Source: Staphylococcus phage PhiSepi-HH3. Taken from it: a stretch of DNA of 64,000 nucleotides. This document shows positions 7,005 through 54,534 of the stretch, piece after piece. How positions within the stretch are numbered: position 1 is the first letter of the stretch; the number at the start of each line of letters is the position of its first letter. Location: sequence record MT880872.1. One strand, 5' to 3'. A program made the position numbers and the translations under genes. The notes below the pieces were generated by a model. That model saw only the letters and a program-made list of their open reading frames with translations. It was not told the DNA's origin and made no database searches.

Positions 7005-7021
7005 AAAGATGTGATAACACG

Positions 7022-9956: not shown

Positions 9957-9983
9957 ATATAAAATCTTTGGAGGATCATATAA

Positions 9984-10424
9984 ATGGCAAAATTAAATTT
10001 AGACCGTGTAAAAGGTCACTACGTTGAAACAATTAAAGCTGACAAAGAATACGAAAACGGTTCTTTAGTTGGTAAAGGTTTATTAGAAGATGGAGAAATT
10101 CGTCTTTACAAAGCTGCTGAAGCTACTGCTGAAAACTGCTTCTTAGTTTCTACTCCGGAACTTGATTTAGCTGCTAAAGCAAACGGTCATGGTTCAATCG
10201 ACTTTGTTAACCCTAAAGGTTCAATCATGCGTGCTCATCAATTAGAAGTTGGAGATACATTTACAGTTGAACAAAAATTACATGGTACAGGTTTCGTTGC
10301 TGGTGAAGCTTTAACTGTTACTGATGGGAAATTCGCTAAAGGTGAAGGTGCATTCGTAGTTGAATATGTAACTACTATTGGTGCTGATCGCCGCCCTGCT
10401 TATTCAATTCGTAAAGTTAAGTAA
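9984..10424 (+). CDS. putative capsid decoration / minor head protein
   Basis: 146 aa. It uses highly-expressed-gene codons (cgt, gct, ggt, aac) and is followed by the capsid gene. Confidence 0.3.
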   Translation: MAKLNLDRVKGHYVETIKADKEYENGSLVGKGLLEDGEIRLYKAAEATAENCFLVSTPELDLAAKANGHGSIDFVNPKGSIMRAHQLEVGDTFTVEQKLHGTGFVAGEALTVTDGKFAKGEGAFVVEYVTTIGADRRPAYSIRKVK

Positions 10425-10462
10425 TAAATTATAATAACACAAATGTATGGAGGATAACTTAA

Positions 10463-11464
10463 ATGCCTAAATTTAGTAATGAATTAAAAGAAGTTGCTAT
10501 CCAAGCTGCTCATGGTGCAACTACTACTCAATTTTCAAATAAAGACTTATCGGACGCTGTTCGTAAAAAAATGATCGAGGAATTAGGTTCAGATACTTTA
10601 GATTATTCTACTTATCGCCGCCGCAAACATGATTTATTCGAATTCATCGAAGAAACTGTTGCCCCTATCGTAAATGAACGCACTGCTGAAATTTTCGGTC
10701 AGTTCGCTGAATACAAAAATATCGCTTTCGGTGATCAAAACAAATTCTTCATCGAAGATATTAAATTATTCCCTGTTGCTACTATCTCTACTGGTAACGG
10801 AAACGTAAAACGTCAACGTTTAGATAGTCAAGAATTAGTAGTACCAATGCATACAATCGGTGCTGGTGTATACGAAGAGTTAGTTCGCTTTTTAGCTGGT
10901 CGTACTGATTGGGCTCGTTTAACTGCTCGTTTAGCTGAGTCATTTGTAAATGATATCGCTCAACGTATTGGTGACGCTCTTTACAAATCAGTTGACTCTG
11001 TTGGTTCTACTTACAAAGCTAACGTTAGTGGTAGTAACAGTGAACTTAAAACTAAAGTATTAGAAATCGCTGATCACGTTGAAGCTGCTAATGGTCAAGC
11101 AGTAATCGTTGGTACTAAAGCTGCTCTTCGTAAATTAAAGCCAGAAGATAGCTCAGACTTACAAAAAGGTGCTAAAAACGAAGTTGGTTACTTCGGTTTT
11201 GTTGATGGAGTTGAATGCATTGCTTTACCTCAATTCCACAAAGCTGGTACTGATGAGTTCGGTCTTAAAAACGATGTTATTTTCGTATTACCAAGCTCAG
11301 ATGAAAAATTAGTTAAAGTTGTTCAAGACGGTCATTACATCGCTCGTGAAGAAGGCGGATCAGAAGGATATCGCACAGACTTACAAATGAGCTTAGACGT
11401 AATCACTCGTGTTGGTGTAGCTGTTGTTACTGCTGCTCGTTATGGTGCTGTTGAATTAAGTTAA
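10463..11464 (+). CDS. putative major capsid protein
   Basis: 333 aa with a strong ribosome-binding site (GGAGGATAA). Its codon usage is that of an abundant protein. A terminator follows at 11485-11514. Confidence 0.5.
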   Translation: MPKFSNELKEVAIQAAHGATTTQFSNKDLSDAVRKKMIEELGSDTLDYSTYRRRKHDLFEFIEETVAPIVNERTAEIFGQFAEYKNIAFGDQNKFFIEDIKLFPVATISTGNGNVKRQRLDSQELVVPMHTIGAGVYEELVRFLAGRTDWARLTARLAESFVNDIAQRIGDALYKSVDSVGSTYKANVSGSNSELKTKVLEIADHVEAANGQAVIVGTKAALRKLKPEDSSDLQKGAKNEVGYFGFVDGVECIALPQFHKAGTDEFGLKNDVIFVLPSSDEKLVKVVQDGHYIAREEGGSEGYRTDLQMSLDVITRVGVAVVTAARYGAVELS

Positions 11465-16866: not shown

Positions 16867-17883
16867 ATGGCAATCGAGAAAAACATGCTGAGAGAAAGAG
16901 CCAAAAAGCTTCCGACAATTACAGATGAAATGTGGGAAAAGGTACATCCTATTTACAAGGAACTTTTAAGTGAGTATTTAGGTTCAGTAGATTTATCGAG
17001 AGACACTAAAAAACAATATACTTCAGCATTGAAACAATTTGGTTGGTTTGTTGCTGATAGTTTAAACAATAAACCCCTATTCAAATTAAAGAAACGTGAC
17101 GCATTGCGTTATATGAACTATTTAAGAGAAGACCGTAAGATGTCATCATCTGGAATTAACTTAAAGAAATCTGCTGTATCTGCTTTCTGTCAATGGATAG
17201 AAAACTATATCGCTGATGACTATGAAGATGAAAATGGAGACCTAGTTTTTGAAACATTTCGTAATTTCATGACAGGCTTACCACCAGTTGTAAAAAATCA
17301 AGTATACGATAAGAAGAAAGTTACATTCGAAGAGTATCAAGAAATGATGAAAGCTCTAAGAAGTGATGAAGATTATTTAGGTATGGCTTGGTTAGCTACT
17401 GCATTTAATGTTGGTGCAAGACGCAGCGAAATTATACAATTTAAAACATCTTTATTCGATCATGAGTGGAATGAAGAAGGAAACTTCTTAATGTCTCATA
17501 ACGTTCGTGGTAAAGGTCGTGGTGAAGATGGTAAGATACTTCAATTTATGATCAATGATGAAGCACTTAAATATATGAAGCTTTGGGTAGAAAAACGTGG
17601 ATATGAAGACGAATACATCTTTACAGTTGGAAATGAGAACACTCATAGGCAAATGAGTAAGTCTTGGGCTGATTATTTCTGCGAGCATACTCTATCTCAT
17701 ATTTTAGGAAGACGTGTTAACCCTCATATCTTTAAAGCTAGTTGTGTAACCTATCTATTAGAAGTTAAAAAGGTTGATATTAAACACGTATCTAAATTAG
17801 TGGCACATCATGAGTCAGTTGAAACTACTCAAATATATGATTTAAGAGACTCTGAAGAAGAGAGAAATTCTATCTTTAGTTAA
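16867..17883 (+). CDS. tyrosine recombinase / phage integrase-family protein (SPbeta YomM-like)
   Basis: The N-terminus resembles the XerD-like core-binding domain. Catalytic-domain motifs are present: GARRSE (Arg), H-I-F-K where the canonical box is HxxR, and AHHESVETTQIYDL with the Tyr nucleophile. Confidence 0.6.
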   Translation: MAIEKNMLRERAKKLPTITDEMWEKVHPIYKELLSEYLGSVDLSRDTKKQYTSALKQFGWFVADSLNNKPLFKLKKRDALRYMNYLREDRKMSSSGINLKKSAVSAFCQWIENYIADDYEDENGDLVFETFRNFMTGLPPVVKNQVYDKKKVTFEEYQEMMKALRSDEDYLGMAWLATAFNVGARRSEIIQFKTSLFDHEWNEEGNFLMSHNVRGKGRGEDGKILQFMINDEALKYMKLWVEKRGYEDEYIFTVGNENTHRQMSKSWADYFCEHTLSHILGRRVNPHIFKASCVTYLLEVKKVDIKHVSKLVAHHESVETTQIYDLRDSEEERNSIFS

Positions 17884-17979
17884 TCTAGTTTTGAATTCTT
17901 GTGGGAATATTTAGTTCTCATAAGACTTGAATACTAGATTTTTTATAATGATTTCGAGAATAAAAGGAGTGAATATAGC

Positions 17980-20900
17980 GTGGCAAGTGATTTTAATATA
18001 GGTATATTATCTACCTTAGAGATAGACTCTAGCTCCTCAAGAAAGAAGATTAACGACACACTTAAAAATATTGAAGCAAATATTAATAGCATTAAAGCAG
18101 ACTTAGAAGTTTCAGATACAAAGAAATCAGAAAATAATGCTATAAAAAGTGCAAACAACGTAATCAGAAACATCAATTCAAACGGTAATTTAAAGAAATT
18201 AAATGTTGAACTAGATGTAAACTTAACAAAAAGTAGACAAAACATTCAAAGAGCATTATCTACTCTATCAAAAGATTTTAAGAATAAGAAAATTGATATT
18301 GAAGTTAATGCTAAAGCTAATAAAAATTCAATCGGACAAGTTAAGAATTCTATTTCTAAAGGTGCAAGTCAGCCACTAGAAATTAAAGAGTCCCCTAGTA
18401 GTAGAAGCACTAGTAGAGATATTAAAGAACAGCAGTCTTTAATGACAGGTTTAGCAAATTCTTATAAGAACTTAGATGATTTAACAAGAGCTTTAAATAC
18501 AAGTACATTTGAAGGGCTTAGAAAAACTGTAAAAGAAATTAAGAACGCAGATAATTCTCTTAAAAGTTATCAAGTTACTTTAGAACGTGTTAACCAAGAA
18601 GGTAAAAAATTAGGCTCTCAAAGATTTGATTATACCCCTTCTGCAAATGGTTTGAAGTTAAACAAAACTCAATTAACTGATCAAACAGATAAAGCTCGTA
18701 AAGAAGAAAATGCTGCTATTAATAAATTATTAGAAAATGAAGTTTCTAAGTATGATCGTTTATTGAATAAAGGTAAAATTGATATTAAACAACATCAAAC
18801 TTTACTTCAAACTCTTAGACAAATTACTAATGAGAAATCAAAAGCTAACCAATTTAATAGAACTGATTTCAATAGAGTAGCAAAAGCTGCTGCTGATGAA
18901 GCAAAAGAATATCAATATCAAAATGATATGCTTCGAAAGAAATTAGCTTTAACTTCTCAAATTGAGCGTATTGAAAACAGAATGGCTGCTACAATTGATA
19001 AGCAACAAACAAATGCTTTGAAAAATCAATTGAATTCTTTAGGTAATAATAGAACACCATTCGGTAAAGAAGCAGCTTTCCATATGAACCAAATTCAAGA
19101 CAAGGTTCGTCAAATCTCTGCTGAAGCTGAAAGAGCAACTAGAACTCAGTTAAGTTTTGTTGATCAATTCAGAGAAGCAATGACAAAATTCCCAGTTTGG
19201 ATGGGTGCTACTACCCTATTCTTCGGTGCCATAAATGGTGCTAAAGAAATGCTTGATGTAATTACTGAAATTGATGGAAAAATGATTACTCTTGCAAAAG
19301 TTACTGGTGATGACAATGCACTTCAACAAACATTTATTGACGCAAATAATGCTGCTTCTCAATTCGGACAGACATTAGGAAGCGTATTAGATGTATATGC
19401 AGAATTCGCTAGACAAGGTGTTAAAGGTAATGAGTTATCTCAATTCTCAAATGCAGCATTAATTGCTGCTAACGTTGGTGAGATTGACGCTAAACAAGCT
19501 TCTGAATATTTAACTTCTATGTCTGCTCAGTGGGAAACGACTGGAAACCAAGCTATGAGACAAGTTGACTCACTCAACGAAGTTTCCAATAAATATGCTA
19601 CAACTGTTGAAAAGTTAGCACAAGGTCAAGCAAAAGCTGGCTCTACTGCTAAATCAATGGGACTTACTTTTGATGAAACTAATGGTATTATTGGTGCATT
19701 AACAGCTAAGACTAAGCAATCTGGGGACGAAATTGGTAACTTTATGAAAGCCACTTTACCTAAACTTTATAGTGGTAAAGGTAAATCAACTATTGAAGGC
19801 TTAGGCATTAGTATGAAAGATGAAAATGGACAATTAAAATCTGCCATTTCTCTTTTAGAAGAAGTTTCTCAGAAAACTAAAAACTTAGAAAAAGACCAAA
19901 AAGCCGCTGTTATAAATGGCTTGGGTGGAACATACCACTACCAACGTATGCAAGTATTATTAGATGATTTATCTAAAACAGATGGCTTATATAAACAAAT
20001 TAAAGAAAGTTCCGAAAGTTCAGCTGGCTCTGCATTACAAGAGAATGCAAAATACATGGAGTCAATTGAAGCTAAAGTTAACCAAGCAAAAACAGCATTC
20101 GAACAATTCGCATTAGCTGTTGGTGAAACATTTGCTAAATCAGGAATGCTTGATGGTATCAGAATGGTTACTCAACTTTTAACTGGTTTAACTCATGGAA
20201 TTACTGAATTAGGCACAACTGCTCCGATTTTCGGCATGGTTGGTGGTGCTGCCTCATTAATGAGTAAGAATGTTAGAAGTGGTTTTGAAGGTGCTAGAAG
20301 TAGTGTTGCTAATTATATTACTGAGGTAAATAAATTAGCTAAAGTTAACAATGCTGCTGGTCAAGTTGTTGGACTTCAAAAAGTTCAAACTGGTACAGCT
20401 TCACAACTTCAGTTTAATAAAAATGGTGAATATGATAAAGCTGCTTCACAAGCAAAGGCTGCTGAACAAGCAACTTACCAATTCTCTAAAGCTCAAAAAG
20501 ATGTATCAGCTAGTGCTATGATCGCTTCAGGTGCAATCAACAAAACAACTGTGGCTACCACAGCAAGCACTGTTGCCACTCGTGCTGCTACACTTGCAGT
20601 TAATGGTTTAAAATTAGCCTTTAGAGGCTTGTTGGCTGCTACTGGTGTCGGGTTAGCAATAACTGGTGTTTCTTTTGTACTGGAAAAAGTTGTAGGTAGT
20701 TTTAATGCTGCAAGTCAAGCTGCTGAACAATATAAACAAAAACAAGAGCAAACGAAGCAAGCAATAGCTTCTATGAGTAATGGTGAAATTAATTCACTTA
20801 TTAGTAGTTACGATAAACTACAACAAAAAATGAATTCTGGTAGTGCATTTAATACAGCGGAAGCTGAGAAATATAAAGAAGTAACAAGTCAATTAGCTAA

Positions 20901-23900
20901 TATATTCCCCGATTTAGTTACTGGTGAAAACCGTTATGGTAAGGAAATGGCCGGTAATAAAGAAGTAATGAAACAGAAAATTGAGTTAATCAAGCAAGAA
21001 ATGGAGCTTGAAAGACAAAAGAATGCTATCAAACAAAAAGAAGAGCAAGACGCTTACATCAAAGAACAAGATAGCTTAGCTAAGAAAAACAGAGGTCAAA
21101 AATGGTATCAACTTGGTCAAACACCAGAGTTGAAACTTCAGGAACAAGCACGTCCTACTACTGTTTCTGATAATAGTAACATTAACAAAATTAATGCCAC
21201 TATCCAAAAAGTGAAGAGTCAAGCCCAAGCTGAAAAAGCATTAGAACAAGTTGATAAGCAACTTGCTCAATCTCAAACTAAGAATAGACAAAATGAAGTT
21301 CAGCACTTACAAAAAGTTAGACAAGCTTTACAAGATTATATTACTAAAACTGGTCAAGCAAATCAGGCAACAAGAGCTGCGGTATTAACTGCACAGCAAC
21401 AATTCACTAACCAGATAGCAACAATGAAAAAGCTTGGTACTACTGGTCAACAAGTGATGACTACTATTTCTAACTCAGTTGCGAAAACAGCAAAGTCTGG
21501 TAAAGCTGCTCAAGCAACCTTCAAGTCGTTTGAAACCTCATTAGTTAAAAGCTCTTCATTCAAAAGCAAGATGGCTAGTTATGAAGCTTCTGTTAAGAAA
21601 TTTAAAAATGCTGCTAACCAATCTGCTAAAATTGCTGCTCTTAAAGACGTAGAACGTGATTACTCTAAAGTTGCTAAAGGTATTATGCAAGCGGCAAAAG
21701 CGGCAAACATGAGTAAATCTCAAATGAAAGATTTGAAAAAATCTCTTCAACAAAATATACAAGCAGAAACAGGCTTTAGAGCTTCAGTAAGTAAAGCTGG
21801 TAAAGTTACTATTGATCAATCTAAGAAAATCAAACAGAATACTGCTGAAACAAGACGTAACTCAAGTGCTAAATTACAAAATGCTGACGCTTCAGACCAA
21901 GCTTCTGAAGAAAATAAAGAGTTAGCAGACTCAATGCGTGCTGGTATTGAAAGTTCTCAATTACTTGGAAAAGCGATGGGAGAATTACAATCTCAAGGAA
22001 CACTTAGTACAGAAACTTTAATTGAATTAACTGAGAAGTATGGAGACGAAATTTTAGCTGTTGCTGGAGATCAGGAAGCTTTAAGTAACTTCATCATGCA
22101 AAAGCAAAATGAAGAAACTGATAACTACAACAAAAACCTTAAAACTAAATTAGAAAACTCTTCATCATACTATAAGGCGGTAGCTGGAGCTGACTCTGCC
22201 CTATCCAACTACTTAATGGAAAACTATGGTATTGATACTAAAAACTATAAGAGTTTAACAGAAGTCAAAGCTAAAATTACAGACCTTTACTACAATGGTT
22301 CAGCTGAAGAACAAGCTAAAGTAGTAGACGCTATCGCAAAAGCTTACCATATTGACTTATCTAACTATGGCTCTCTGAATGAGAAAAAAGAAGCATTAGA
22401 GAACCAATTGATGAAAATCTTAGGTAGTAAGTGGAAAAAATATATTGGTAGCGTAGCTAAGGATATGAAATCTCTTGGTGTTGACGCTGGTGAAGTTGGA
22501 GCAGATGGTTTTGATGACAGTAAAATGTTCAATCCGGGTGCTCTTATCGGTGCTAACAATTTCCAAAACGTTTCTAACCTAAGTAATATCAGTAATGTAT
22601 TCAACTCACTTAATGGTGCATTTAATGAAGCTAAGAATGAAGCTGCTGGTGTTAGTAGAGGCTTAGATGACGCTGCTAGTGGCTTAAAAGATGTTGGTGA
22701 CAGTGCTGGCTCAGCTGGTAGTGGTTTAGGTAAAACTGCTAAAGGCGCGGATAAAGCGTCTGACAGTTTAGATGGTACTAATAAAGAATTAGAAAAAACT
22801 AAAGAAAAAGCTGAAGAAGCTGGTGTCACAGTTAAACAACTTTATAAGCAATTTACAGTTACTACTTATGTTGCTGATAAACTAAGTATGGCTTTAGATA
22901 AAATTAATAATAAGTTAGAGAAACAAAAACTTTTAACTGAAAAATACGCAACTTGGTCAAGCAGTTATCGTAACTCACTTAAAGCAGAAAATAAATTGCT
23001 CGATGAAAAGACCGCTAAGATTAAAAAACAAATCGAGTCAATGAAAGAACAAATCGCTCAAGGTAAAGTTATTGAGTATGGTTTAGTTGGTAAAGATATT
23101 AATGTTCCTTACTATGAATATACTGCAAATAATTTAGATGATGGAGAAACTGGTCGTATTTCTCGATATACCGGTAATTCAACTCAAGCTAAGGTTTGGA
23201 ATTTCTTTAAATCTAAAGGGTTATCTGATCATGCTGTTGCGGGTATCATGGGTAATATGGAACGTGAGTCTAGATTTAAACCGGGAGCTCAAGAACAAGG
23301 CGGTACTGGTATTGGTTTAGTACAACTTTCATTTGGGCGTGCAAATAATTTAAGAAATTATGCTGCTAGAAGAGGAAAAAGCTGGAAAGACTTAAATACT
23401 CAACTTGACTTCATTTGGAAAGAATTAAATACTACTGAAGTTAATGCTTTACGAGGACTTAAATCAGCTACTTCAGTTATTGGTGCAGCAAACTCTTTCC
23501 AAAGATTATATGAACGTGCTGGTGTTGTAGCACAAGGAGAACGTAATGCGGCAGCTAAAAAGTATTACAGACAATTTAAAGGTACTAATGGTTCATCTGG
23601 CTTCCTAAGTGGTGGCGTGGTCGCTGGAACAAATGGTAAACCACTTACTTCAGATAGAAACGCTTATATCTTAGATAGACAATTCGGACGATATAATGGT
23701 GGTGGTGTCCATCACGGAAGAGATATCACGAGTGCTACTATTAACGGATCACCTATTAAAGCTGCACGTTCAGGTATAGTTACTTTTAAAGGATGGACTG
23801 GTGGTGGTAATACACTATCTATATTTGATGGTAAAAATACTTATACATACATGCATATGAAGAACCCGGCAAGAGTGGTAAAAGGACAACGAGTTAAAGC

Positions 23901-24474
23901 TGGACAAATTGTTGGTAACGTTGGTACTACGCATGATAGAAGATTAGGTGGCTTCTCTACTGGCCCTCACCTTCACGTACAAGTAAACTTAGGAAAAACT
24001 CCTTCTGGTACATTTATGAACACTTTCAATGGTGCTCATAGAGCAGTCGATCCTGTTAAATATGGATATACTAGAGTTTCTGGTGGCGGTAGTCTAAACT
24101 TAGGCTCGCTAACTTCTGGACATTCAGCGATGTCTGGTTCTATCAGTGCTGCAATGGCTGAAGACTTAAATGAAGCTGAACAAGAGCGTTTAAACAAAAT
24201 TGAACAAGCAATTAACGCACATAATAAAGCTGAAGAAATGAAGCAAAAAGTTGATGAGCTTAGAAAAACGTTAATGGATAAACAGCTTGAAGAAGTTCAA
24301 ACTGCTAAAGAAAAAAGTGAAAATCTTTATAACATCCAAAAATCTCACGTAGAAGAATATGATCATTGGAGAACATTACAAGAAGCACGATCTGCTAAAT
24401 TAGAATACGAATTAAACAAAATCGAATTCGAAAAAGGTAGAAATACTAAAGAATGGCGTAATAAAAATAAATAA
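17980..24474 (+). CDS. tail tape measure protein (2164 aa) with C-terminal tail-lysozyme-like and M23 peptidase domains
   Basis: GTG start with the ribosome-binding site AAAGGAG. The long helical N-terminal region has a central hydrophobic stretch. The lysozyme-like block GLSDHAVAGIMGNMERESRFKPGA...GIGLVQ lies at about 23200-23560. The M23 block GRDI...HMHM...GPHLHVQV lies at about 23690-24010. Confidence 0.8.
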   Translation: MASDFNIGILSTLEIDSSSSRKKINDTLKNIEANINSIKADLEVSDTKKSENNAIKSANNVIRNINSNGNLKKLNVELDVNLTKSRQNIQRALSTLSKDFKNKKIDIEVNAKANKNSIGQVKNSISKGASQPLEIKESPSSRSTSRDIKEQQSLMTGLANSYKNLDDLTRALNTSTFEGLRKTVKEIKNADNSLKSYQVTLERVNQEGKKLGSQRFDYTPSANGLKLNKTQLTDQTDKARKEENAAINKLLENEVSKYDRLLNKGKIDIKQHQTLLQTLRQITNEKSKANQFNRTDFNRVAKAAADEAKEYQYQNDMLRKKLALTSQIERIENRMAATIDKQQTNALKNQLNSLGNNRTPFGKEAAFHMNQIQDKVRQISAEAERATRTQLSFVDQFREAMTKFPVWMGATTLFFGAINGAKEMLDVITEIDGKMITLAKVTGDDNALQQTFIDANNAASQFGQTLGSVLDVYAEFARQGVKGNELSQFSNAALIAANVGEIDAKQASEYLTSMSAQWETTGNQAMRQVDSLNEVSNKYATTVEKLAQGQAKAGSTAKSMGLTFDETNGIIGALTAKTKQSGDEIGNFMKATLPKLYSGKGKSTIEGLGISMKDENGQLKSAISLLEEVSQKTKNLEKDQKAAVINGLGGTYHYQRMQVLLDDLSKTDGLYKQIKESSESSAGSALQENAKYMESIEAKVNQAKTAFEQFALAVGETFAKSGMLDGIRMVTQLLTGLTHGITELGTTAPIFGMVGGAASLMSKNVRSGFEGARSSVANYITEVNKLAKVNNAAGQVVGLQKVQTGTASQLQFNKNGEYDKAASQAKAAEQATYQFSKAQKDVSASAMIASGAINKTTVATTASTVATRAATLAVNGLKLAFRGLLAATGVGLAITGVSFVLEKVVGSFNAASQAAEQYKQKQEQTKQAIASMSNGEINSLISSYDKLQQKMNSGSAFNTAEAEKYKEVTSQLANIFPDLVTGENRYGKEMAGNKEVMKQKIELIKQEMELERQKNAIKQKEEQDAYIKEQDSLAKKNRGQKWYQLGQTPELKLQEQARPTTVSDNSNINKINATIQKVKSQAQAEKALEQVDKQLAQSQTKNRQNEVQHLQKVRQALQDYITKTGQANQATRAAVLTAQQQFTNQIATMKKLGTTGQQVMTTISNSVAKTAKSGKAAQATFKSFETSLVKSSSFKSKMASYEASVKKFKNAANQSAKIAALKDVERDYSKVAKGIMQAAKAANMSKSQMKDLKKSLQQNIQAETGFRASVSKAGKVTIDQSKKIKQNTAETRRNSSAKLQNADASDQASEENKELADSMRAGIESSQLLGKAMGELQSQGTLSTETLIELTEKYGDEILAVAGDQEALSNFIMQKQNEETDNYNKNLKTKLENSSSYYKAVAGADSALSNYLMENYGIDTKNYKSLTEVKAKITDLYYNGSAEEQAKVVDAIAKAYHIDLSNYGSLNEKKEALENQLMKILGSKWKKYIGSVAKDMKSLGVDAGEVGADGFDDSKMFNPGALIGANNFQNVSNLSNISNVFNSLNGAFNEAKNEAAGVSRGLDDAASGLKDVGDSAGSAGSGLGKTAKGADKASDSLDGTNKELEKTKEKAEEAGVTVKQLYKQFTVTTYVADKLSMALDKINNKLEKQKLLTEKYATWSSSYRNSLKAENKLLDEKTAKIKKQIESMKEQIAQGKVIEYGLVGKDINVPYYEYTANNLDDGETGRISRYTGNSTQAKVWNFFKSKGLSDHAVAGIMGNMERESRFKPGAQEQGGTGIGLVQLSFGRANNLRNYAARRGKSWKDLNTQLDFIWKELNTTEVNALRGLKSATSVIGAANSFQRLYERAGVVAQGERNAAAKKYYRQFKGTNGSSGFLSGGVVAGTNGKPLTSDRNAYILDRQFGRYNGGGVHHGRDITSATINGSPIKAARSGIVTFKGWTGGGNTLSIFDGKNTYTYMHMKNPARVVKGQRVKAGQIVGNVGTTHDRRLGGFSTGPHLHVQVNLGKTPSGTFMNTFNGAHRAVDPVKYGYTRVSGGGSLNLGSLTSGHSAMSGSISAAMAEDLNEAEQERLNKIEQAINAHNKAEEMKQKVDELRKTLMDKQLEEVQTAKEKSENLYNIQKSHVEEYDHWRTLQEARSAKLEYELNKIEFEKGRNTKEWRNKNK

Positions 24475-24540
24475 CTTCAAGCTTCTAGACAACTTGAAGT
24501 TAATTTCGAAGACTCAAAAATACAATATATTAATAAAGCA

Positions 24541-26253
24541 TTGAAGAAGAATGCAAATAAAATATTTGGTAAAAATACAGTAAATCGTGATGAGTTTGAA
24601 ACAATGAAGCGAGACGCTCAACAAAATATAAGAGATTTAAAAGCTGGTATTCAAACTGCTTCTGGTGAAATTGCTACTTCAATGATTGATCAAATTCTTG
24701 ATGAATATGAAGACCGTGTAGGTAAAGTTTCAGCTAAAATTGAAAAGATGGGTAAACAAAAAGAAAAACTTGATTTAGCCGATAATAAACAGGCTTTGAA
24801 AAGTTCATCCCTAAGTAGACAACAAGCTAAAGACTCTAAGTCACTAGCTAGTTACATTAATTTCTATATCAAACAATTAGAACGCCAGTTAAAATTAACG
24901 GGTAAAAACCATGAATTACAACAAAAAGTAAAAGAACAAATTAAAGAAATGAAAGTTGCTTATGATGACGCTACCCTAGCCGCTCATCAATATATTACTG
25001 AAGCTGCTGAAGTTGATACAGAAAGACAACTTCAATTAAACGCTAATCGTTTAAGAGACGCACAAAACGAGTTGTCTAAAGCTGATTATAAAGCTGGTTT
25101 CATTTCACAAGAATATCAAATTGACCTATACCGAAAAAATCAAGAAGCTAAGTTCAAAGGTTACTTAAAAGAAAAAGAAGCACTTGAACAAAATAAATCA
25201 GAACTTCAAGACATGTATGAGATTTATAAATCTGTCCCTACTCAAGCTCAAAAAATCAAAGAAGCTCTAATTGAAACCAAAAATGCTATTAGAGATAATA
25301 ATAAAGGTCTCTATGATTTGAAATATGATATGGCTAACAGTGTTATAAATCAAATTAAGGATATCTATTCAAAACAACTAGAGGTTGCCACGAAAGCGTA
25401 TGATGATGAATACAAAGCATACGAAAAAATGATCAACAAAAAGCTTAAACTTATTGATGATGAACAAACTCAAGAGTCATTCAATAAAGATGTCCGTGAT
25501 AGAACTGAAGCAATGGATAAAATTAGAGATGAAATTGCTCAAAGAAGTGGTGACGATAGTTTAGCTAACCAAAAGAAACTTAAAGATTTAAGAGAACAAT
25601 TAAAACAACAAGAAGAAGACTATACGATGTTCATTAACAATAAAAATCGTGATGACAGAAGAAAAGCTTTACAAGATGAGCTAAACGATAAAAACGAACA
25701 AATACAAGAACAAAAAGAAGATTTAAATAAAGCTTTCCAAGACTTAATTGGTGATACACGAAGATTTAATGCGATCCAAGAGTCACTTATGGAAGGTCAA
25801 ATTGATAAATATAAATCTCTAATTGCTGACTTAACTAAATACGTCAACGATAATATGAAAGAAATTGGACGTTCTACTAGTGAAGGAATATTAGATGGTC
25901 TTGCTGCTTCATTTAAAGGTTTGTCTTCTTTATCTAAAGAACTTCAGAAACAAGAAAAAAATAATTTGAACCCAGTACCTAATTCAAAATTAAAACCTAC
26001 TAAGGTTGATGAAGCTACAATCGCTGCCATTAAGAAAGTTAATGGTTTATCCCCTACTACTATACTTCAAGGTTTAGATATCAAACCTGTTAACCTTCCT
26101 AAAGATGTAAAACCAAGTAAAACAGTTACTAACAATAATAAAACGACTGCTAAAGCATTAGTTAACATTGAAAACTTCAACGGTACAAAAGCTGAAGCAG
26201 ATAAATTAGCTAATAACTTAGCAACTGCCATGAGAAAACAAGGCGTATTATAA
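24541..26253 (+). CDS. coiled-coil tail protein, in the same frame as the tape measure ORF and separated from it by a single TAA (possible C-terminal continuation of the tape measure protein)
   Basis: 17980 and 24541 are both congruent to 1 modulo 3. The 22 codons after the TAA at 24472-24474 are all sense codons. No ribosome-binding site precedes TTG 24541 or ATG 24604. Confidence 0.45.
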   Translation: MKKNANKIFGKNTVNRDEFETMKRDAQQNIRDLKAGIQTASGEIATSMIDQILDEYEDRVGKVSAKIEKMGKQKEKLDLADNKQALKSSSLSRQQAKDSKSLASYINFYIKQLERQLKLTGKNHELQQKVKEQIKEMKVAYDDATLAAHQYITEAAEVDTERQLQLNANRLRDAQNELSKADYKAGFISQEYQIDLYRKNQEAKFKGYLKEKEALEQNKSELQDMYEIYKSVPTQAQKIKEALIETKNAIRDNNKGLYDLKYDMANSVINQIKDIYSKQLEVATKAYDDEYKAYEKMINKKLKLIDDEQTQESFNKDVRDRTEAMDKIRDEIAQRSGDDSLANQKKLKDLREQLKQQEEDYTMFINNKNRDDRRKALQDELNDKNEQIQEQKEDLNKAFQDLIGDTRRFNAIQESLMEGQIDKYKSLIADLTKYVNDNMKEIGRSTSEGILDGLAASFKGLSSLSKELQKQEKNNLNPVPNSKLKPTKVDEATIAAIKKVNGLSPTTILQGLDIKPVNLPKDVKPSKTVTNNNKTTAKALVNIENFNGTKAEADKLANNLATAMRKQGVL

Positions 26254-26274
26254 GATTGTGAGGAGATGAGATAA

Positions 26275-28356
26275 GTGCCAGATATATTCTCAATGGAATA
26301 TACAGAGCTGAGAAATGCTCCCCACTTTATTTTTAACGGTTATCATACTCGTGATTTCAATGTAAAAAATGTACAAGTAGACAACGGTTTAGCAAGCGAC
26401 ACGTTCCTTGCTGACCGTACGCCTACTATTGAAAAAACAAGGTTCAGTGAGAAGACTTATTTACTAGGTTATACTGAAGAACCGCTTAAATTTAAAGTTA
26501 GATTATTATTTGATGAACATAAATTCACATTGAATAATATTATGACGTTAAGACGAATGATTGACACTGCTGGCTTTAAAGAATTTAGATTTGACAATGA
26601 AGAAGAGTCTGCATTAAATATTGTAGTTTATGCAATGATTACTGGAGCTTCTAATTTAACTCATAATGTAATCAATGATGGTTATGTTGACTTAGAATTC
26701 CAAACTAATAGTCCAAGAAGATATTCTGAAATCATGATTGATGAATATGACTTTAGTCGATCAGGTTCAGACAGATTAATTACTGAATTCAAAAGCGAAT
26801 TAAATAGTATTGTTCAATTAGAAGAAACTTTCTCTCATGAAATTAAGCAATACACTGCTAGAACAAACTATGCAAATATTGAAGAATTTTTTGAAGATAA
26901 GAATAAAGATAGTATTCCAGATGGTTGGAAAATTATCTCTGGTAATAAAAGTGGAATTGTTCTAAATAAAGACAAAAGTTTATCATTAACTAATGTAAAA
27001 CTTAGAAAACGTTTCTACCCTATTAATAACAGAAATTACTACATTAGATTTCATGGTAATGGTGGAAAGTTTAGAATTCATGAAGATACTTATAAAATCA
27101 CAGATGGTTTAGTCCATGAATTTAAATATAGAAGAAACCTTTTAGGCCATAGTGGTACTTTTGATTTAGATAGTTCTAGTGATGGAATTGGTGAAGGTTG
27201 GACTCAAAAAGGAGATAATGGTGCTTTTACTATTAATAAAGTAAGTGAGTTTCAGCAAATTACTGATGGTGGTATTTTAACCTCTCCTATTTCCATTCAA
27301 AAAATGCAAAAATATGTAGTGATTGCAGATGATTTAAATAAAAATTCTACTATCAAAGTTGGTAAAAACACAGTAACCAATACTACTTCACTACTCACAA
27401 AGATGAAGTTTATTGGTAGCTTGTCAGATCATGATATTACTATCAGTGCAGCCACTCCAACTGATAAAGCAATGTTATCACATATTCGAGTATTTGCAGT
27501 TACAGACGATGAATATGCAGAATTCGATACATTGACTGACCAGCAAATTAAAAATAAATACCCACATACTGACGCTCACGACTATTTCGAATTAGATTTT
27601 CTAGATACAGCTGGAAAAATTAATTATATAGATATGTGGGAATTAAGTGATGTTAATAAAAAGAAATTAGATAAAGGAACTAAAATAGAAGATATTATTT
27701 ATACACCTTATAAGAAATATCTAGCATTCCTTAATAAATACAAAGCTAATTTCACTCGAATGAAGGTTGAATTACTTGATAACTTCGCTAAAGTAAGCGG
27801 AGATCCAACAATTAACTTCAGACCACTTCGGGATAAAACAACGATTTTATTGCAAAAATTCAATCTACTTTTACAGAGTTTATCATTCGGTGACAATATG
27901 AAAAAGTATCAGTGGGCTGACTTACAACCATATTATCACCAAGTTTTATCAATCAAAGAGGAAACTGCGAAGCTTTTACCAGATTTGATCAGTTTCGTTA
28001 AACTGAATTCGAATAAGATTGATTTAATTTCAAACTTAGCTAACAGTAAAATTACAGTTTATAACTTTGGTGATAAACCTGTTTACCCTACTTTTACATT
28101 TGAGTCAACAAATGGCTCAGATATATTAGTAAGAAACTTAGACACCAATCAACAAACAATCATCAGTGATAATCTTGCTGGTGAGACAATCACTATGATT
28201 GGTGCAAGCGAACAAATTTATTCTTCTCGACCAGCTCCATATTTTAAATATGACGCACATGATGATAATTTTATCAGATTGGGTGTTGGAAGTAACGATT
28301 TAGAATTCGCTGGCAATTTTAAACTGAAAATTAAATATCAATTTGTATTACTATAA
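26275..28356 (+). CDS. distal tail protein (Dit-like), long form
   Basis: GTG start with the ribosome-binding site GAGGAGA. It holds the position after the tape measure gene and before the giant tail protein gene. Confidence 0.45.
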   Translation: MPDIFSMEYTELRNAPHFIFNGYHTRDFNVKNVQVDNGLASDTFLADRTPTIEKTRFSEKTYLLGYTEEPLKFKVRLLFDEHKFTLNNIMTLRRMIDTAGFKEFRFDNEEESALNIVVYAMITGASNLTHNVINDGYVDLEFQTNSPRRYSEIMIDEYDFSRSGSDRLITEFKSELNSIVQLEETFSHEIKQYTARTNYANIEEFFEDKNKDSIPDGWKIISGNKSGIVLNKDKSLSLTNVKLRKRFYPINNRNYYIRFHGNGGKFRIHEDTYKITDGLVHEFKYRRNLLGHSGTFDLDSSSDGIGEGWTQKGDNGAFTINKVSEFQQITDGGILTSPISIQKMQKYVVIADDLNKNSTIKVGKNTVTNTTSLLTKMKFIGSLSDHDITISAATPTDKAMLSHIRVFAVTDDEYAEFDTLTDQQIKNKYPHTDAHDYFELDFLDTAGKINYIDMWELSDVNKKKLDKGTKIEDIIYTPYKKYLAFLNKYKANFTRMKVELLDNFAKVSGDPTINFRPLRDKTTILLQKFNLLLQSLSFGDNMKKYQWADLQPYYHQVLSIKEETAKLLPDLISFVKLNSNKIDLISNLANSKITVYNFGDKPVYPTFTFESTNGSDILVRNLDTNQQTIISDNLAGETITMIGASEQIYSSRPAPYFKYDAHDDNFIRLGVGSNDLEFAGNFKLKIKYQFVLL

Positions 28357-28416: not shown

Positions 28417-31400
28417 ATGACTTTAAATAACCATTTTGCATATACATTTGAGGAGAGACCTACCCCAAAATTATGGCTTTGTAAACCAGATGGAACTAGA
28501 ATTGAAAGAATTGCAGATTTTTCAAAACTTGGTGGAACATTCAAATTCACTAATGTGAACACTTTACATTTTGATTTGCCATTGCAAGTATTTAGTGAAG
28601 ATACTAAGCAAATTGAAAGAAATAAAGTAGTTGATTTAGTAAAAAATAAATACTTAATTGATTATAGATATAACGGATATAGAGATATCTTTGTAATTGA
28701 TGATATTAAAAAATCTGCTAATGACTCTGATTTTATTACATTAAATTTAGACTCAAGAGCGTCTGAATTAAATAAGAAAGCTGCAAATGAAATTGAATTA
28801 TTAGGTTCTACTATCCCTCAAATGATGAACAAAATCTTATCAGTTTATGCTCCACTATGGAAACTTGGACATGTTGATGGAAAAATTATTGATGTTAAAC
28901 GTGAGTTAACTGGTTCTAATACAACTGTTAACGCTCTTATTGATAATATTTGTTCTCTTTTTGACGCAGTTGCTATTTATAACAACATTAATAGAACAAT
29001 AAGCTTCTATCATAAAGACAATGTTGGTACTAATCGTGGTTTAAGAGTTAGGGAAAATAGTTATTTAAAATCATTTGAAGATCAATTTGTATCAAAGGAT
29101 ATCGTTACTAGATTATATCCATTTGGTCAAAGTGGTTTAACAATTCAAAGTGTTAACCCAGCTGGCTCTTCTTATATTGAAGACTTCTCTTATTTCATGT
29201 CACCATTCAAACGTGATAATAACAGAAATGTATTACAACATAGTGATTATATGTCTGATGAATTATGTCACGCTTTGTTAGATTATCAAGAGTTTTATGC
29301 TAGTAAGAAGGATCAAGCTGGTGAATTATCTAAACAATATAGTGCAATTCTTAAAGAGCATTCACAAGAAGACTTCAGATTAAATCAATTAAGTGCTACA
29401 CTTCAACGACTAAATGAGCGTGTTGAATTAGTTAAACCTAAATCAGAATATATTGACTTAGGAACAAAGGTTAAGAATTTCAAAATCACTGTACCTAAAT
29501 CATCATATTATTTAATCATGATTAGAAATGATGGTAGTTTCACTAGAATTAAATTCAATAATAAACAGTATGATATTCCAAGTGGTGAGTGGTTGTATAT
29601 CAAACTTAAAACTGGTAAGTTTAATGACGCTACTAAGTTTGAGAAACAATTAGAATACCCTCTTGAAATATTAAGTGCAAACGCTAATTTAAGAGTGGTA
29701 TATACTCGTTCTTCTGAAGGAGATTATGAAGAAGAAGATACTAAGACAATCGAAGAAAAATACAACTTAGAAAAATATAAAATTTTAGTAAAAGATCAAG
29801 AAAAAGTAGTCGCTTCAATCGAAAGACGATTAAAAGCTTTTGAAGACCAAAAAGCAAGTGTAATACGTTCAATGAATGCAAAGAATTTCTTATCTGAAAA
29901 ACTTTATAATGAACGTGAGTTATATGTTTTTGAGTCTGTTTGGACGGAAGAAAATCATACAGACGCTCAAGAATTATATGATGACGCTGTAAAACAAATG
30001 AAGGAACAAAAGAAAATCAATAGAACGATTACAGTTGATTTAGTTAACTTCATTCAATCGCTTGACCATAAAGATGATTGGGATAAATTAAATGTTGGAG
30101 ATAAAGTTGTTTTCCAAAACAAAATCTTCAATACTAAAATCAAAGCCTATATCACTGAAATGCAATTAGATTTCCAAACTAATCAAGTAAAAATTACTAT
30201 TAGTGATATTTTTGATTACAAAGATTTAGACACAATCATCGCTGAAAAATTAGCCCAAACTACCTCTACTTCTTCTCAAGTTGATTTCCATAAACAACAA
30301 ATTAGAGAGCAAACCGGAAGAATTACAGATATGACTCGTCTTATCGAAGGTGAGTGGGACGCAAATAAAAAGCGTGTGATGGCTGGTAATGAAACAGTTG
30401 ATATTGGTTCACATGGTGTTAAAGTCATTTCAAAAGAGAACCCTAACGAATTCGTAATCATGGTTGGTGGCGTAATTGCTATGACTCGTGATAACGGTGA
30501 AACATTTAAAACTGGTATTACACCAGAAGGTATCAATGCTGAAATGCTTATCGGTAAGATGATCGTTGGTGAAACTTTAACTTTTGAAAATGAGTCTGGT
30601 ACAGTTAAATTCGACAAAGATGGACTTTATGTTAACTCTAAAAACTTCCATTTAGTTTCAAATGATGGAGAAGAAGACTACTTCGATAAATTAAAACGTG
30701 AAATGTCTGAAAACGCTAAACAACAAACAGACAGAATGTTAGAAGAGTATAAAAAAGAAGTTTCACAAACTATTTCTGAAGCTACTGACGTTAGAAACAT
30801 TGTTGATAATGCAGCAGATATTCTTCAAGCAGCTTTTGCTGATGGAGTTATCACAGATGTTGAAAAACGTTTGATTTCTGAAACTCTTGCTCAACTTGAA
30901 AAAGAAAATAGAGAATTCGAAGATAAAATTAACTTAGCTTTAAACCACCCTTACATCACTGAGGAAGATACTATTGAGTTAAATAATTCTATCGTTGAAT
31001 ATAGCTCAATGTATGAAACACTTGTTATTTCTATTAATGAAAGTGTTAGTGACAAGATGATCACACCTCAAGAGTCTGAAGAAATTAATCAAAATATTAT
31101 AAACTTCAGAGAAGAGATCAAAGACATCTTATCATTAGTAGAAGAAATTATTGAACGAACTAAAAATGCTCAACTACAAGCTACTTTAGAAGAAGCAAAA
31201 GATTATACAACAAGAGTTCGTGACGATATTAAAGATGAATTAAAAGACTTAAATAATTCATTTAAATCTTTAAATAGTACAGTTGAAGAGTCATTACAAG
31301 ATAATATTTTTGACGCTGCTGAATTAGAAGCTATTAAAACAGTTGTATTAGTAACTAAATCAGAATATCAAGATATTACAAATAGATATTCTTCAATGTC

Positions 31401-43553: not shown

Positions 43554-43584
43554 TTACATAAATTTAACTAAGGAGTGTTGTTCT

Positions 43585-54526: not shown

Positions 54527-54534
54527 AATATTAT

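What the first reader, a model, noticed from the sequence alone, without database searches (positions are those of the whole stretch)
17980..24474. The tape measure protein carries two different muralytic domains (a tail-lysozyme-like domain and an M23 peptidase domain)
The C-terminal 400 aa contain a glycosidase-like block (GLSDHAVAGIMGNMERESRF...GIGLVQLSFGRANNL, the same family as SPbeta YomI) followed by an M23/LytM block (HxxxD...HMHM...GPHLHVQV). Two cell-wall-degrading activities built into the tape measure protein would act as virion-associated lysins during injection through the thick staphylococcal wall. Such domains are potential enzybiotic modules.
Basis: partly seen in the sequence, partly recalled or inferred. 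Interest (0 to 1): 0.4.

Follow-up and report, generated by a model that had tools for sequence, protein, structure and literature searches.

The report
Truncated tape measure gene with two lysins
The two cell-wall-cutting domains are real and look catalytically intact, but this layout is already known for SPbeta-type phages, and in this window the gene is cut short by a premature stop codon, so the domains are not really at the protein's end.

Summary
ORF 17980-24474 has a tape-measure core (aa 416-761), a phi29-gp13-type tail lysozyme domain (PF18013, aa 1735-1866, E 4e-41) and an M23 peptidase domain (aa 1910-2006, E 1e-17). The catalytic residues are all present: E1763, Y1905, H1911, D1915, H1959, H1997 and H1999.

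Three corrections are needed.
1. The ORF is incomplete. A C>T change at 24472 turns CAA into TAA. Twelve other copies examined carry C there, and nine of them (counting KT429160/NC_029119 as one) read on to 26253 (2757 aa). The module therefore sits at 63-73% of the protein, not in its C-terminal 400 aa. The missing 593 aa are the conserved end that, in phage 80alpha, docks in the tail tip. This copy is probably a pseudogene in a defective prophage.
2. The glycosidase block is not in YomI/CwlP's family. CwlP has an SLT domain; only the M23 domain and the overall layout are shared.
3. The window is a Staphylococcus SPbeta-like prophage, 99.98% identical to NC_029119 and 100% identical to GCA_016884965.1 over 22 kb. 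Its tape measure protein is widely annotated, in a cluster of 517 members.

A tape measure protein carrying two lysin domains was characterised for SPbeta CwlP in 2010. The finding is ordinary and of low interest.

The parts
17980..26253 (+). Complete tape measure protein gene as it stands in intact relatives (8274 nt, 2757 codons). In this window it is interrupted by a stop at 24472.
   Evidence: NC_029119 and MT955612 annotate one CDS over this span. Loci L017, L019 and L020 have a 2757-aa gene. PHROG 4211 'tail length tape measure protein' matches residues 2-2757.
17980..24474 (+). The ORF as flagged: the 5' 78.5% of the tape measure gene (2164 codons plus TAA).
17964..17969 (+). Shine-Dalgarno-like AAGGAG, 10 nt upstream of the GTG start.
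   Evidence: Sequence read. Gene callers in other genomes use the same start.
19225..20262 (+). Tape measure core domain (aa 416-761). Pfam PhageMin_Tail covers aa 456-650.
   Evidence: TIGR01760 E 1.6e-43; PF10145 E 9.5e-37.
19183..19239 (+). Hydrophobic segment aa 402-420 (TKFPVWMGATTLFFGAING), a possible membrane-inserting stretch.
   Evidence: The sequence was located, but it did not reach the mean >1.5 hydropathy threshold used in that scan. The role is inferred.
20614..20694 (+). Hydrophobic segment about aa 879-905 (LLAATGVGLAITGVSFVL), a possible membrane-inserting stretch.
   Evidence: Kyte-Doolittle scan, mean >1.5 over 19 residues. The role is inferred.
23182..23577 (+). Phage tail lysozyme domain (PF18013, phi29 gp13 N-terminal type), aa 1735-1866.
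   Evidence: Pfam E 4.2e-41. phmmer hit to 3csq/3csr. Foldseek hits to 3csq (E 5e-14) and 3csr (target TM-score 0.68).
23266..23268 (+). Codon for Glu1763, the counterpart of the proposed catalytic Glu45 of phi29 gp13 (NMERES aligns with NMQSES).
   Evidence: Alignment. Invariant in 17 two-domain homologues. The role of Glu45 is taken from PMC10394673.
23578..23706 (+). Gly/Ser-rich flexible linker between the two catalytic domains (aa 1867-1909). Its 3' end holds Tyr1905.
   Evidence: pLDDT is below 50 for aa 1872-1885. Y1905 aligns with LytM Tyr204 (role from PMC9662197).
23707..23997 (+). Peptidase M23 domain, aa 1910-2006. Active-site codons: H1911 (23710-12), D1915 (23722-24), H1959 (23854-56), H1997 (23968-70), H1999 (23974-76).
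   Evidence: Pfam E 1.1e-17. Alignments to lysostaphin 4qp5 and LytM 2b0p. These residues are invariant or nearly invariant. Foldseek target TM-scores are 0.75-0.79 to LytM and lysostaphin.
24472..24474 (+). Premature ochre stop TAA (C>T at 24472). The ancestral codon is CAA, Gln2165.
   Evidence: The only other copy with T is L018 (GCA_016884965.1), which is 100% identical to the window over 22,082 bp.
24475..26253 (+). Orphaned 3' part of the tape measure gene (592 codons plus stop). It is in frame with the upstream ORF and has no convincing ribosome-binding site at its internal start codons.
   Evidence: Matches PHROG 4211 positions 2035-2550, E 8.8e-129. No Pfam or NCBIfam hit.
24472..24502 (.). 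Inverted repeat whose perfect stem grows from 9 to 10 bp through the C>T change.
   Evidence: Any role in producing the mutation is speculation.

Best explanation
The locus is the tail tape measure protein gene of a Staphylococcus SPbeta-like prophage.

In its intact form the protein is 2757 aa. It has an N-terminal TP901-type tape-measure core with hydrophobic segments, long helical spacer regions and an internal two-enzyme module. That module is a phi29-gp13-type lysozyme-like glycosidase (catalytic Glu1763) joined by a flexible Gly/Ser linker to a canonical LytM/lysostaphin-type zinc M23 endopeptidase (Y1905, H1911, D1915, H1959, H1997, H1999). About 750 residues follow the module.

Inferred mechanism in intact phages:
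- Three copies fill the tail tube, with the C-terminus docked in the tail tip.
- On adsorption the protein is expelled first.
- The glycosidase cuts glycan strands and the M23 domain cuts peptide cross-links locally in the thick staphylococcal wall.
- The hydrophobic segments help to form the passage for DNA.

A separate CHAP-amidase-SH3b endolysin (43585-45087) handles lysis from within.

In this window a single C>T change at 24472 creates a TAA stop after codon 2164. It removes the conserved C-terminal 593 aa. This copy is most likely a pseudogene, and the prophage is probably unable to build functional tails, although the lysin module's coding sequence is still intact.

Shown: domain identities, catalytic residues, fold, truncation, synteny. 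Inferred: virion location, enzymatic activities and specificity, loss of tail assembly.
For: Domains:
- Pfam PF18013 4e-41, PF01551 1e-17, PF10145 1e-36; TIGR01760 1.6e-43; PHROG 4211 over the whole length.
- The best solved relative is phi29 gp13, with both domains in the same order. It is followed by lysostaphin and LytM.
- The AlphaFold model has mean pLDDT 78, with both domains at 80-97.
- E63, H211, D215, H259 and H297 of the fragment (E1763, H1911, D1915, H1959, H1997) are invariant, and H299 (H1999) nearly so, in 17 two-domain homologues of 31-65% identity.

Architecture:
- Relatives whose module is 52-65% identical (three of the four nearest checked against Pfam) keep core, lysozyme2 and M23 in 2754-2845 aa, with the module at about 1700-2130.
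- The SPbeta-type CwlP homologue has core, SLT, M23 and about 620 further aa.

Truncation.

Synteny: YomO/YomN/YomM-like genes lie upstream and tail proteins downstream.

No rescue route found: there is no tRNA, and so no suppressor, in the window, and no Shine-Dalgarno sequence at the downstream starts.

Separate endolysin.
Against: - No experiment here shows enzyme activity, presence in the virion or tail defects.
- A single-base substitution could be an assembly error. The only other copy with T (L018) may be the very assembly the window was cut from, so it is not independent confirmation.
- A folded module of about 35 kDa, 750 aa from the C-terminus, is hard to fit inside a tail-tube lumen. 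Where it sits in the virion is unknown.
- An induced Mammaliicoccus relative (phi6255) is also deposited with a split tape measure gene, at a frameshift in an A-run. This may mean that split genes are tolerated, or it may simply be a sequencing error.
Confidence: 0.8

Rival explanations
1. The gene is really intact. The T at 24472 is a base-calling or assembly error, so the prophage encodes the normal 2757-aa tape measure protein with an internal lysin module.
For: It is one substitution in an otherwise 99.98-100% identical sequence. Every independent copy has C. The exact 2164-aa product is not on record in the gene-call collection. The reference phage record itself carries probable homopolymer errors elsewhere.
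Against: The same T is present in a deposited assembly (L018, GCA_016884965.1), where no gene is called across the span. Substitution errors are uncommon in finished assemblies. Other genomes carry independent real-looking lesions in this gene: a 1-nt deletion, a 1-nt insertion and an IS256-family insertion. Decay of this gene in prophages is therefore common.
Confidence: 0.15
2. The truncated gene still gives a working tail. This could happen by stop-codon read-through or suppression, or by separate translation of the 3' part (24541/24604-26253) so that two polypeptides together replace the single protein.
For: The downstream part stays in frame and undamaged, and a 549-aa product from ATG 24604 is called as a gene in four contigs with other lesions. 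The induced phage phi6255 is deposited with a two-piece tape measure gene. A stable hairpin starts exactly at the stop codon.
Against: There is no Shine-Dalgarno motif before any internal start and no suppressor tRNA in the window. Intactness of the 3' part is expected for a very recent mutation and is not evidence of selection. The 12 other copies examined all have a sense codon at this position, and those without other lesions encode a single polypeptide. Tape-measure function requires one continuous chain from the tail tip to the tail terminator (established knowledge; PMC7048315).
Confidence: 0.04
3. The module is not an entry enzyme. It would be a secreted bacteriolysin or autolysin of the ALE-1/lysostaphin kind, as the GenBank record KT429160 labels the gene, or an accessory lysis enzyme.
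For: The M23 half is most similar to lysostaphin and LytM among solved structures. KT429160 names the CDS 'glycyl-glycine endopeptidase ALE-1 precursor'.
Against: The domains lie 1700 residues into a protein with a TP901-type tape-measure core, in the tail gene block. No signal peptide or SH3b wall-binding domain was found by Pfam. The phage has its own holin and CHAP-amidase-SH3b endolysin. The homologous architecture in SPbeta CwlP is regarded as virion-associated (PMC5380687, PMC9662197).
Confidence: 0.02

Closest known systems
Bacillus subtilis prophage SPbeta CwlP (YomI). Compared here through its phi3Ts homologue, annotated 'similar to SP beta lytic transglycosylase CwlP'.
   Same: Both are giant tape measure proteins (2294 vs 2757 aa) in the same gene neighbourhood: YomO, YomN and the YomM-like recombinase upstream, YomG-like giant tail protein downstream. 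Both have the order core, glycosidase, M23, then a 600-750 aa tail. The M23 domains are 34% identical, E 8e-14. CwlP is reported to be a muramidase plus DD-endopeptidase (Sudiarta et al. 2010, as cited in PMC5380687 and PMC9662197).
   Different: The glycosidase domain comes from a different Pfam family: SLT PF01464 in CwlP and PF18013 here. The pairwise match is not significant (E 3.5). The host peptidoglycan has Gly-rich cross-bridges rather than direct D-Ala-mDAP links (textbook knowledge), so the endopeptidase target must differ. The copy in this window is truncated.
Bacteriophage phi29 gp13 (tail-knob 'morphogenesis protein 1', PDB 3CSQ)
   Same: It is the same two-domain module in the same order: an N-terminal lysozyme-like domain with a catalytic Glu (E45, matching E1763), a flexible linker and a C-terminal M23 domain. 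It is the best hit by sequence (2.7e-11) and by fold (5e-14, 314 aligned columns).
   Different: gp13 is a free-standing 365-aa protein at a podovirus tail tip, not part of a tape measure protein. Its M23 domain has an H(x)7D motif and Gln at the oxyanion position (PMC9662197), whereas this one has the canonical Hx3D and Tyr1905. The M23 halves align poorly (6.2 bits).
Lysostaphin, LytM and ALE-1 (staphylococcal glycyl-glycine M23 endopeptidases)
   Same: These are the best solved matches for the M23 half: 45.6 and 43.9 bits, target TM-scores 0.75-0.79. The full active-site set is shared (Tyr, Hx3D, His, HxH).
   Different: Identity is only about 30-36%. There is no SH3b targeting domain. Bond specificity has not been tested. 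The context is a phage structural protein.
Tail-associated lysins with PF18013 plus M23 in other Gram-positive phages: enterococcal Tal architecture 'DA3', Staphylococcus phage Lacachita 'putative endopeptidase', Streptococcus thermophilus phages CHPC926 and SW22
   Same: They carry the same pair of domains, covering about 78% of the module at 28-30% identity. The pair is described for enterococcal tail lysins in PMC10194240.
   Different: In Lacachita, and by that paper's account in enterococcal phages, the pair sits in the tail-tip (Tal-position) protein, after the tape measure protein and Dit, rather than inside the tape measure protein. The enterococcal survey found only GH23 lytic transglycosylases inside tape measure proteins.
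Tape measure proteins with embedded muralytic motifs in general (T5 Pb2, mycobacteriophage TM4, S. aureus siphophage proteins with M23)
   Same: The principle of a wall-degrading activity carried by the tape measure protein is shared (Boulanger 2008 and Piuri & Hatfull 2006, as cited in PMC5380687 and PMC10194240). Many S. aureus phage tape measure proteins match the M23 part at 37-40% identity.
   Different: Those carry one lytic domain or motif. This family carries two, as CwlP does.

Membership tests
Phage tail tape measure protein (TIGR01760 / PF10145 / PHROG 4211) | Tape-measure core domain scoring above the curated cut-off | tested here: met
   TIGR01760: 149.1 bits against a cut-off of 28.8, aa 416-761. 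PF10145: 127.3 bits against 33.2. PHROG 4211: E = 0.
Phage tail tape measure protein (TIGR01760 / PF10145 / PHROG 4211) | Position in the tail gene block, after the tail tube and chaperone-like genes and before the distal tail and tail-tip genes | tested here: met
   The order is virion structural protein, YomO, YomN, YomM-like, tape measure gene, DUF6558 tail protein, YomG-like 2681-aa tail protein.
Phage tail tape measure protein (TIGR01760 / PF10145 / PHROG 4211) | One continuous reading frame reaching the conserved C-terminus that docks in the tail tip | tested here: not met
   TAA at 24472-24474 removes 593 aa that match PHROG 4211 positions 2035-2550. The feature is met in relatives L017, L019, L020, NC_029119 and MT955612.
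Phage tail tape measure protein (TIGR01760 / PF10145 / PHROG 4211) | Presence inside the tail tube of virions, with protein length setting tail length | not testable with these tools
   Needs virion proteomics, electron microscopy or deletion mutants.
Phage_lysozyme2 (PF18013; phi29 gp13 N-terminal domain type) | Profile match above the gathering score | tested here: met
   140.9 bits against 28.2, profile positions 2-140 of 140.
Phage_lysozyme2 (PF18013; phi29 gp13 N-terminal domain type) | Catalytic glutamate equivalent to gp13 Glu45 | tested here: met
   E1763 aligns with E45 and is invariant in 17 homologues. The role of Glu45 is taken from PMC10394673.
Phage_lysozyme2 (PF18013; phi29 gp13 N-terminal domain type) | Helical lysozyme-like fold | tested here: met
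   The model has seven helices with pLDDT 77-97. Foldseek gives 3csq at E 5e-14 and 3csr at target TM-score 0.68.
Phage_lysozyme2 (PF18013; phi29 gp13 N-terminal domain type) | Glycosidase activity on peptidoglycan | not testable with these tools
   A homologous domain of PrgK is reported to be a muramidase (bioRxiv 10.1101/2024.02.15.580431). The gp13 family has no CAZy number for lack of functional data (PMC10394673).
Peptidase M23 (M23B, LytM/lysostaphin type) | Profile match above the gathering score | tested here: met
   64.4 bits against 28.7.
Peptidase M23 (M23B, LytM/lysostaphin type) | Zinc ligands Hx3D and the second His of HxH; catalytic His residues; oxyanion Tyr | tested here: met
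   H1911-x3-D1915, H1959, H1997-L-H1999 and Y1905 align with the corresponding LytM and lysostaphin residues. The motif definitions come from PMC9662197.
Peptidase M23 (M23B, LytM/lysostaphin type) | M23 beta-sheet fold | tested here: met
   Foldseek target TM-scores are 0.75-0.79 to 4qpb, 2b13 and 4zyb.
Peptidase M23 (M23B, LytM/lysostaphin type) | Bond cleaved (Gly-Gly, D-Ala-Gly or other) | not testable with these tools
   Only a lean is available: lysostaphin and LytM are the best solved matches and the Tyr-type oxyanion residue is present.
SPbeta CwlP/YomI-type tape measure protein with two lysin domains | Order core, glycosidase, M23, long C-terminal region, in SPbeta-type synteny | tested here: met
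   This holds for the intact allele; the window copy lacks the C-terminal region.
SPbeta CwlP/YomI-type tape measure protein with two lysin domains | Glycosidase domain of the SLT/GH23 family | tested here: not met
   The CwlP homologue has PF01464 at E 1e-34, while this protein has PF18013 and no SLT hit. BLASTP between the two blocks gives E 3.5.
SPbeta CwlP/YomI-type tape measure protein with two lysin domains | Homologous M23 domain | tested here: met
   34% identity over 143 aligned columns, E 8e-14.

The most novel reading that the evidence does not exclude
The premature stop may not be a random lesion. It could be one instance of recurrent inactivation of the tape measure gene in these large staphylococcal SPbeta-like prophages, which carry a gene for an LPXTG surface protein. 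Such inactivation would lock the prophage and its cargo into the chromosome (domestication). The C>T change may itself have arisen by template switching within the quasi-palindrome at 24472-24502.

A still more speculative variant: the truncated 2164-aa product, with its lysin module now near the C-terminus, is released on induction and acts as a free bacteriolysin.

Evidence so far: independent lesions in the same gene in other genomes, namely a 1-nt deletion, a 1-nt insertion and an IS256-family insertion, plus several shortened cluster members. The mutation also lengthens a perfect inverted repeat from 9 to 10 bp.

Against this: the gene is one of the two largest mutational targets in the prophage, and no test for selection was possible.
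Probability: 0.12. Interest if true: 0.4.

Novelty: already known. Interest (0 to 1): 0.12.

Why it matters
The finding matters little as a discovery, for three reasons:
- The gene is annotated as a tape measure protein in RefSeq.
- Its three Pfam domains are precomputed in public collections.
- A tape measure protein carrying two lysin domains was characterised biochemically for SPbeta CwlP.

There is some practical value. The module at aa 1730-2035 is a compact pair, a gp13-type glycosidase plus a LytM/lysostaphin-type endopeptidase, native to a Staphylococcus epidermidis phage. Its predicted active sites are intact, so it is a reasonable but unexceptional candidate for an antibacterial enzyme.

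The useful corrections for anyone following up:
- The ORF in this window is a truncated allele.
- The natural protein is 2757 aa.
- The glycosidase belongs to the gp13 family, not the SLT family, so CwlP data cannot be transferred to it directly.

Tried and rejected
- **Exact-product look-up.** The 2164-aa product (with Met start) was not on record.
- **Genome-collection scans.** Two pattern scans of the species-representative genome collection around the stop codon found nothing. The prophage is absent from the representative genomes, or differs there.
- **Word-indexed homology search.** The module returned only 4 hits at E <= 1e-10. I used the exhaustive representative search instead.
- **Suppressor tRNA.** None was found in the window.
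- **Promoter and terminator scan of 17500-26600.** Promoter-like sites were no more frequent than in shuffles. The terminator-like sites include only the coding-region hairpin at the stop. There is no sign of a separate transcription unit for the 3' part.
- **Internal restart sites after the stop.** TTG 24541, ATG 24604 and the others lack Shine-Dalgarno motifs.
- **CwlP primary paper.** PMC3009849 is not held in the library, so CwlP properties are cited from reviews. Two SPbeta papers contain nothing on YomI as a tape measure protein.
- **Lysis enzyme or secreted bacteriocin reading** (the GenBank 'ALE-1 precursor' label). Rejected on architecture, synteny and the presence of a separate endolysin.
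- **Opposite-strand ORFs** inside the gene (17943-18245 and 22365-22829). Not pursued, because they lie wholly inside a strongly supported coding region.

Full report
**Where the window comes from**

The flagged ORF matches Staphylococcus phage SPbeta-like (KT429160 / NC_029119, host S. epidermidis 36-1) and SPbeta-like 2 (MT955612, S. haemolyticus) at essentially 100% identity. Over window 1-48774 there are only nine differences from NC_029119, plus the absence of a roughly 1.27-kb insertion (annotated IS3-family transposase genes) that the phage record carries. After 48774 the window diverges.

Window 16275-38356 is 100.000% identical to a 2.62-Mb contig of assembly GCA_016884965.1 (locus L018). 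The window is therefore a prophage in a staphylococcal chromosome, very likely that one. The neighbouring tail gene's exact product is indexed in 1123 blocks of the public collection and was seen on 788 contigs. The tape measure protein's 90%-identity cluster has 517 members, named 'phage tail tape measure protein' in S. epidermidis, S. aureus, S. hominis and S. haemolyticus. This is a common, annotated element.

**Checking the observation**

ORF 17980-24474 exists. It has a GTG start with AAGGAG 10 nt upstream and 2164 codons. Profile searches place three regions:

| Region (aa) | Family | E-value |
|---|---|---|
| 456-650 | PhageMin_Tail | 9.5e-37 |
| 416-761 | TIGR01760 tape_meas_TP901 | 1.6e-43 |
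| 1735-1866 | Phage_lysozyme2 PF18013 | 4.2e-41 |
| 1910-2006 | Peptidase_M23 PF01551 | 1.1e-17 |

All are far above the curated cut-offs.

**The catch: the ORF is a truncated gene**

Both phage records annotate one CDS of 8274 nt (2757 aa) that corresponds to window 17980-26253. The window differs by a single C>T at 24472, which turns CAA (Gln2165) into TAA.

- The 592 codons that follow stay in frame. They match the C-terminal part of PHROG 4211 'tail length tape measure protein' (profile positions 2035-2550, E 8.8e-129).
- C is present in every other copy examined: three IMG/VR contigs, two metagenome/WGS contigs and genome loci L015, L016, L017, L019 and L020. Only L018, which is identical to the window, has T.
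- Relatives L009, L011 and L012 read through to the stop at 26251-26253.
- More distant relatives, with 52-65% identity in the module, are 2754-2845 aa long with the module at about 1700-2130. The three of these checked against Pfam have the same three domains.

The module therefore lies at 63-73% of the natural protein, and 751 aa follow the M23 domain. 'C-terminal 400 aa' is an artefact of the nonsense mutation.

**What the two blocks are**

A sequence search of aa 1701-2040 against solved structures gives phi29 gp13 (3CSQ) as the best hit. Both halves align in the same order. Lysostaphin and LytM follow for the second half.

An AlphaFold model built on 17 homologues has mean pLDDT 78. Both domains score 80-97 and the Gly/Ser linker is disordered. 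Foldseek against the PDB again ranks 3CSQ first (E 5e-14, 314 aligned columns). It gives target TM-scores of 0.75-0.79 for LytM and lysostaphin, and 0.68 for the isolated gp13 N-domain.

*Glycosidase half.* E1763 in NMERES aligns with gp13 Glu45 in NMQSES, the proposed catalytic residue (PMC10394673). It is invariant in the 17-sequence alignment.

*Peptidase half.* Y1905, H1911-x3-D1915, H1959 and H1997-x-H1999 match the LytM/lysostaphin set of oxyanion Tyr, Hx3D, catalytic His and HxH. The alignments are, the positions, conservation and the motif roles in PMC9662197.

According to that review, gp13's own M23 domain has H(x)7D and Gln at the oxyanion position. The M23 half here is therefore canonical rather than gp13-like, which fits its weak alignment to gp13's C-domain (6.2 bits).

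**Relation to SPbeta YomI/CwlP**

The CwlP homologue of Bacillus phage phi3Ts (2294 aa) has PhageMin_Tail at 391-581, SLT PF01464 at 1423-1531 and M23 at 1577-1672.

- The overall layout and the gene neighbourhood are the same. That neighbourhood includes the odd tyrosine-recombinase-like YomM gene directly upstream.
- The M23 domains are homologous (34% identity, E 8e-14).
- The glycosidase blocks belong to different Pfam families and do not match significantly (E 3.5). The weak alignment does put MERES/GLVQL over QQES/GLMQL, which hints at a common lysozyme-like ancestry.

**How it most likely works (inferred)**

In phage 80alpha the C-terminus of the tape measure protein sits inside the Tal trimer at the tail tip. 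Tail assembly is thought to start from a Dit-Tal-tape measure nucleus, and the protein is thought to leave first at infection (PMC7048315).

By analogy with CwlP, gp13 and other virion-associated lysins (PMC5380687, PMC9662197), the intact 2757-aa protein would be expelled on adsorption. Its glycosidase and endopeptidase would then open the peptidoglycan locally. Two hydrophobic segments (aa 402-420 and about 879-905) may help to cross the membrane.

The phage has a separate holin and a CHAP-Amidase_3-SH3b endolysin, so the module is not the lysis enzyme.

Specificity is untested. The canonical LytM-like site and the Gly-rich staphylococcal cross-bridges (textbook knowledge) make Gly-Gly or D-Ala-Gly cleavage more likely than the D-Ala-mDAP cleavage reported for CwlP and gp13.

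**Consequence of the stop**

Losing the conserved C-terminal 593 aa should prevent the protein from nucleating a tail, so this prophage copy is probably defective.

- No suppressor tRNA is encoded in the window.
- No internal start has a Shine-Dalgarno motif.
- An assembly error cannot be excluded, because L018 may be the window's own source.
- Other genomes show independent lesions in the same gene. L015 has a 1-nt deletion at the equivalent of 24565. L016 has a 1-nt insertion at 23218 and an IS256-family insertion with an 8-bp duplication. Several cluster members are shortened.

Decay of this very large gene in resident prophages is evidently common.

**How widespread and how new**

The exhaustive search found 19,200 proteins at E <= 1e-3 and 2,225 at E <= 1e-10. 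Many are of tape-measure size and many carry both domains.

In phage genomes the pair also occurs in a tail protein encoded just after Dit (Staphylococcus phage Lacachita), in S. thermophilus CDSs annotated as tape measure proteins, and in phi29-like gp13. It has been described for enterococcal tail lysins (PMC10194240).

The only paper found that discusses the phage mentions its tape measure protein in passing (PMC6507118).

**Verdict**

This is a correct but unsurprising domain observation on a known, annotated gene. It needs two important corrections: the allele is truncated, and the family analogy for the glycosidase is wrong. Interest is low.

Noticed in passing
window 24472-24502: The nonsense C>T lies at the outer edge of an inverted repeat. 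It lengthens the perfect stem from 9 to 10 bp (DNA fold -7.8 vs -6.7 kcal/mol). This pattern is what template-switch 'quasi-palindrome correction' mutations produce, but it could be coincidence.
   Followed up: partly
L015 (Logan SRR30018388) and L016 (GCA_030290475.1, CP127769.1), equivalents of window 23218, 24545-24552 and 24565: The same tape measure gene carries independent inactivating lesions in other genomes. There is a 1-nt deletion giving 2200-aa and 549-aa genes, and a 1-nt insertion inside the lysozyme domain together with an IS256-family (PF00872) insertion flanked by an 8-bp duplication.
   Followed up: partly
window 16867-17883 (+): A tyrosine-recombinase-like gene (Phage_integrase plus SAM-like N-domain, YomM homologue) sits inside the tail operon directly upstream of the tape measure gene. 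The position is conserved in Bacillus phi3Ts (an SPbeta relative), Staphylococcus SPbeta-like phages and Mammaliicoccus phages. Its role in a structural module is unexplained.
   Followed up: no
L013 (Mammaliicoccus phage phi6255, PV389083.1) 2825-11097: This induced prophage is deposited with its tape measure gene split into 1615-aa and 1112-aa CDSs by a frameshift next to an A-run. The split lies upstream of the lysin module. The sister phage phi36 has one 2767-aa CDS. It is either a sequencing error or a tolerated split.
   Followed up: partly
window 5899-5900 and 10819, compared with NC_029119: Relative to the window, the reference phage record lacks GG and T at these sites. In the reference this splits a 602-aa ORF (5196-7004) and a 333-aa ORF (10463-11464) into two CDSs each. 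The window's versions are intact, so the reference probably carries indel errors.
   Followed up: partly
window 28417-36462 (+): A giant 2681-aa tail protein has a YOMG_N domain and stretches matching a PHROG annotated as glycerophosphoryl diester phosphodiesterase. It may be a teichoic-acid-degrading activity at the tail tip, complementing the lysins of the tape measure protein.
   Followed up: no
window 43535-43585, compared with NC_029119 71251-72518: Just upstream of the CHAP-Amidase_3-SH3b endolysin gene (window 43585-45087), the window lacks the roughly 1.27-kb insertion, annotated as IS3-family transposase genes, that interrupts the reference phage there.
   Followed up: partly
window 47847-48560 (-) and 48775-64000: An LPXTG-anchored surface protein gene sits next to the point where the window stops matching NC_029119. 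The remaining 15 kb matches only S. aureus phage 'SA 1306 Kay' records, at about 78%. This is a different replication or early-gene module, a sign of mosaicism among SPbeta-like staphylococcal prophages.
   Followed up: no
PDB 9k2v_A (fold search): The two-domain model also aligns over 351 columns with a 907-aa chain of the cyanophage A4 'pre-ejectosome' (E 1.2e-8). This suggests the same lysozyme-M23 pair is used in ejection proteins of a podovirus that infects cyanobacteria.
   Followed up: no
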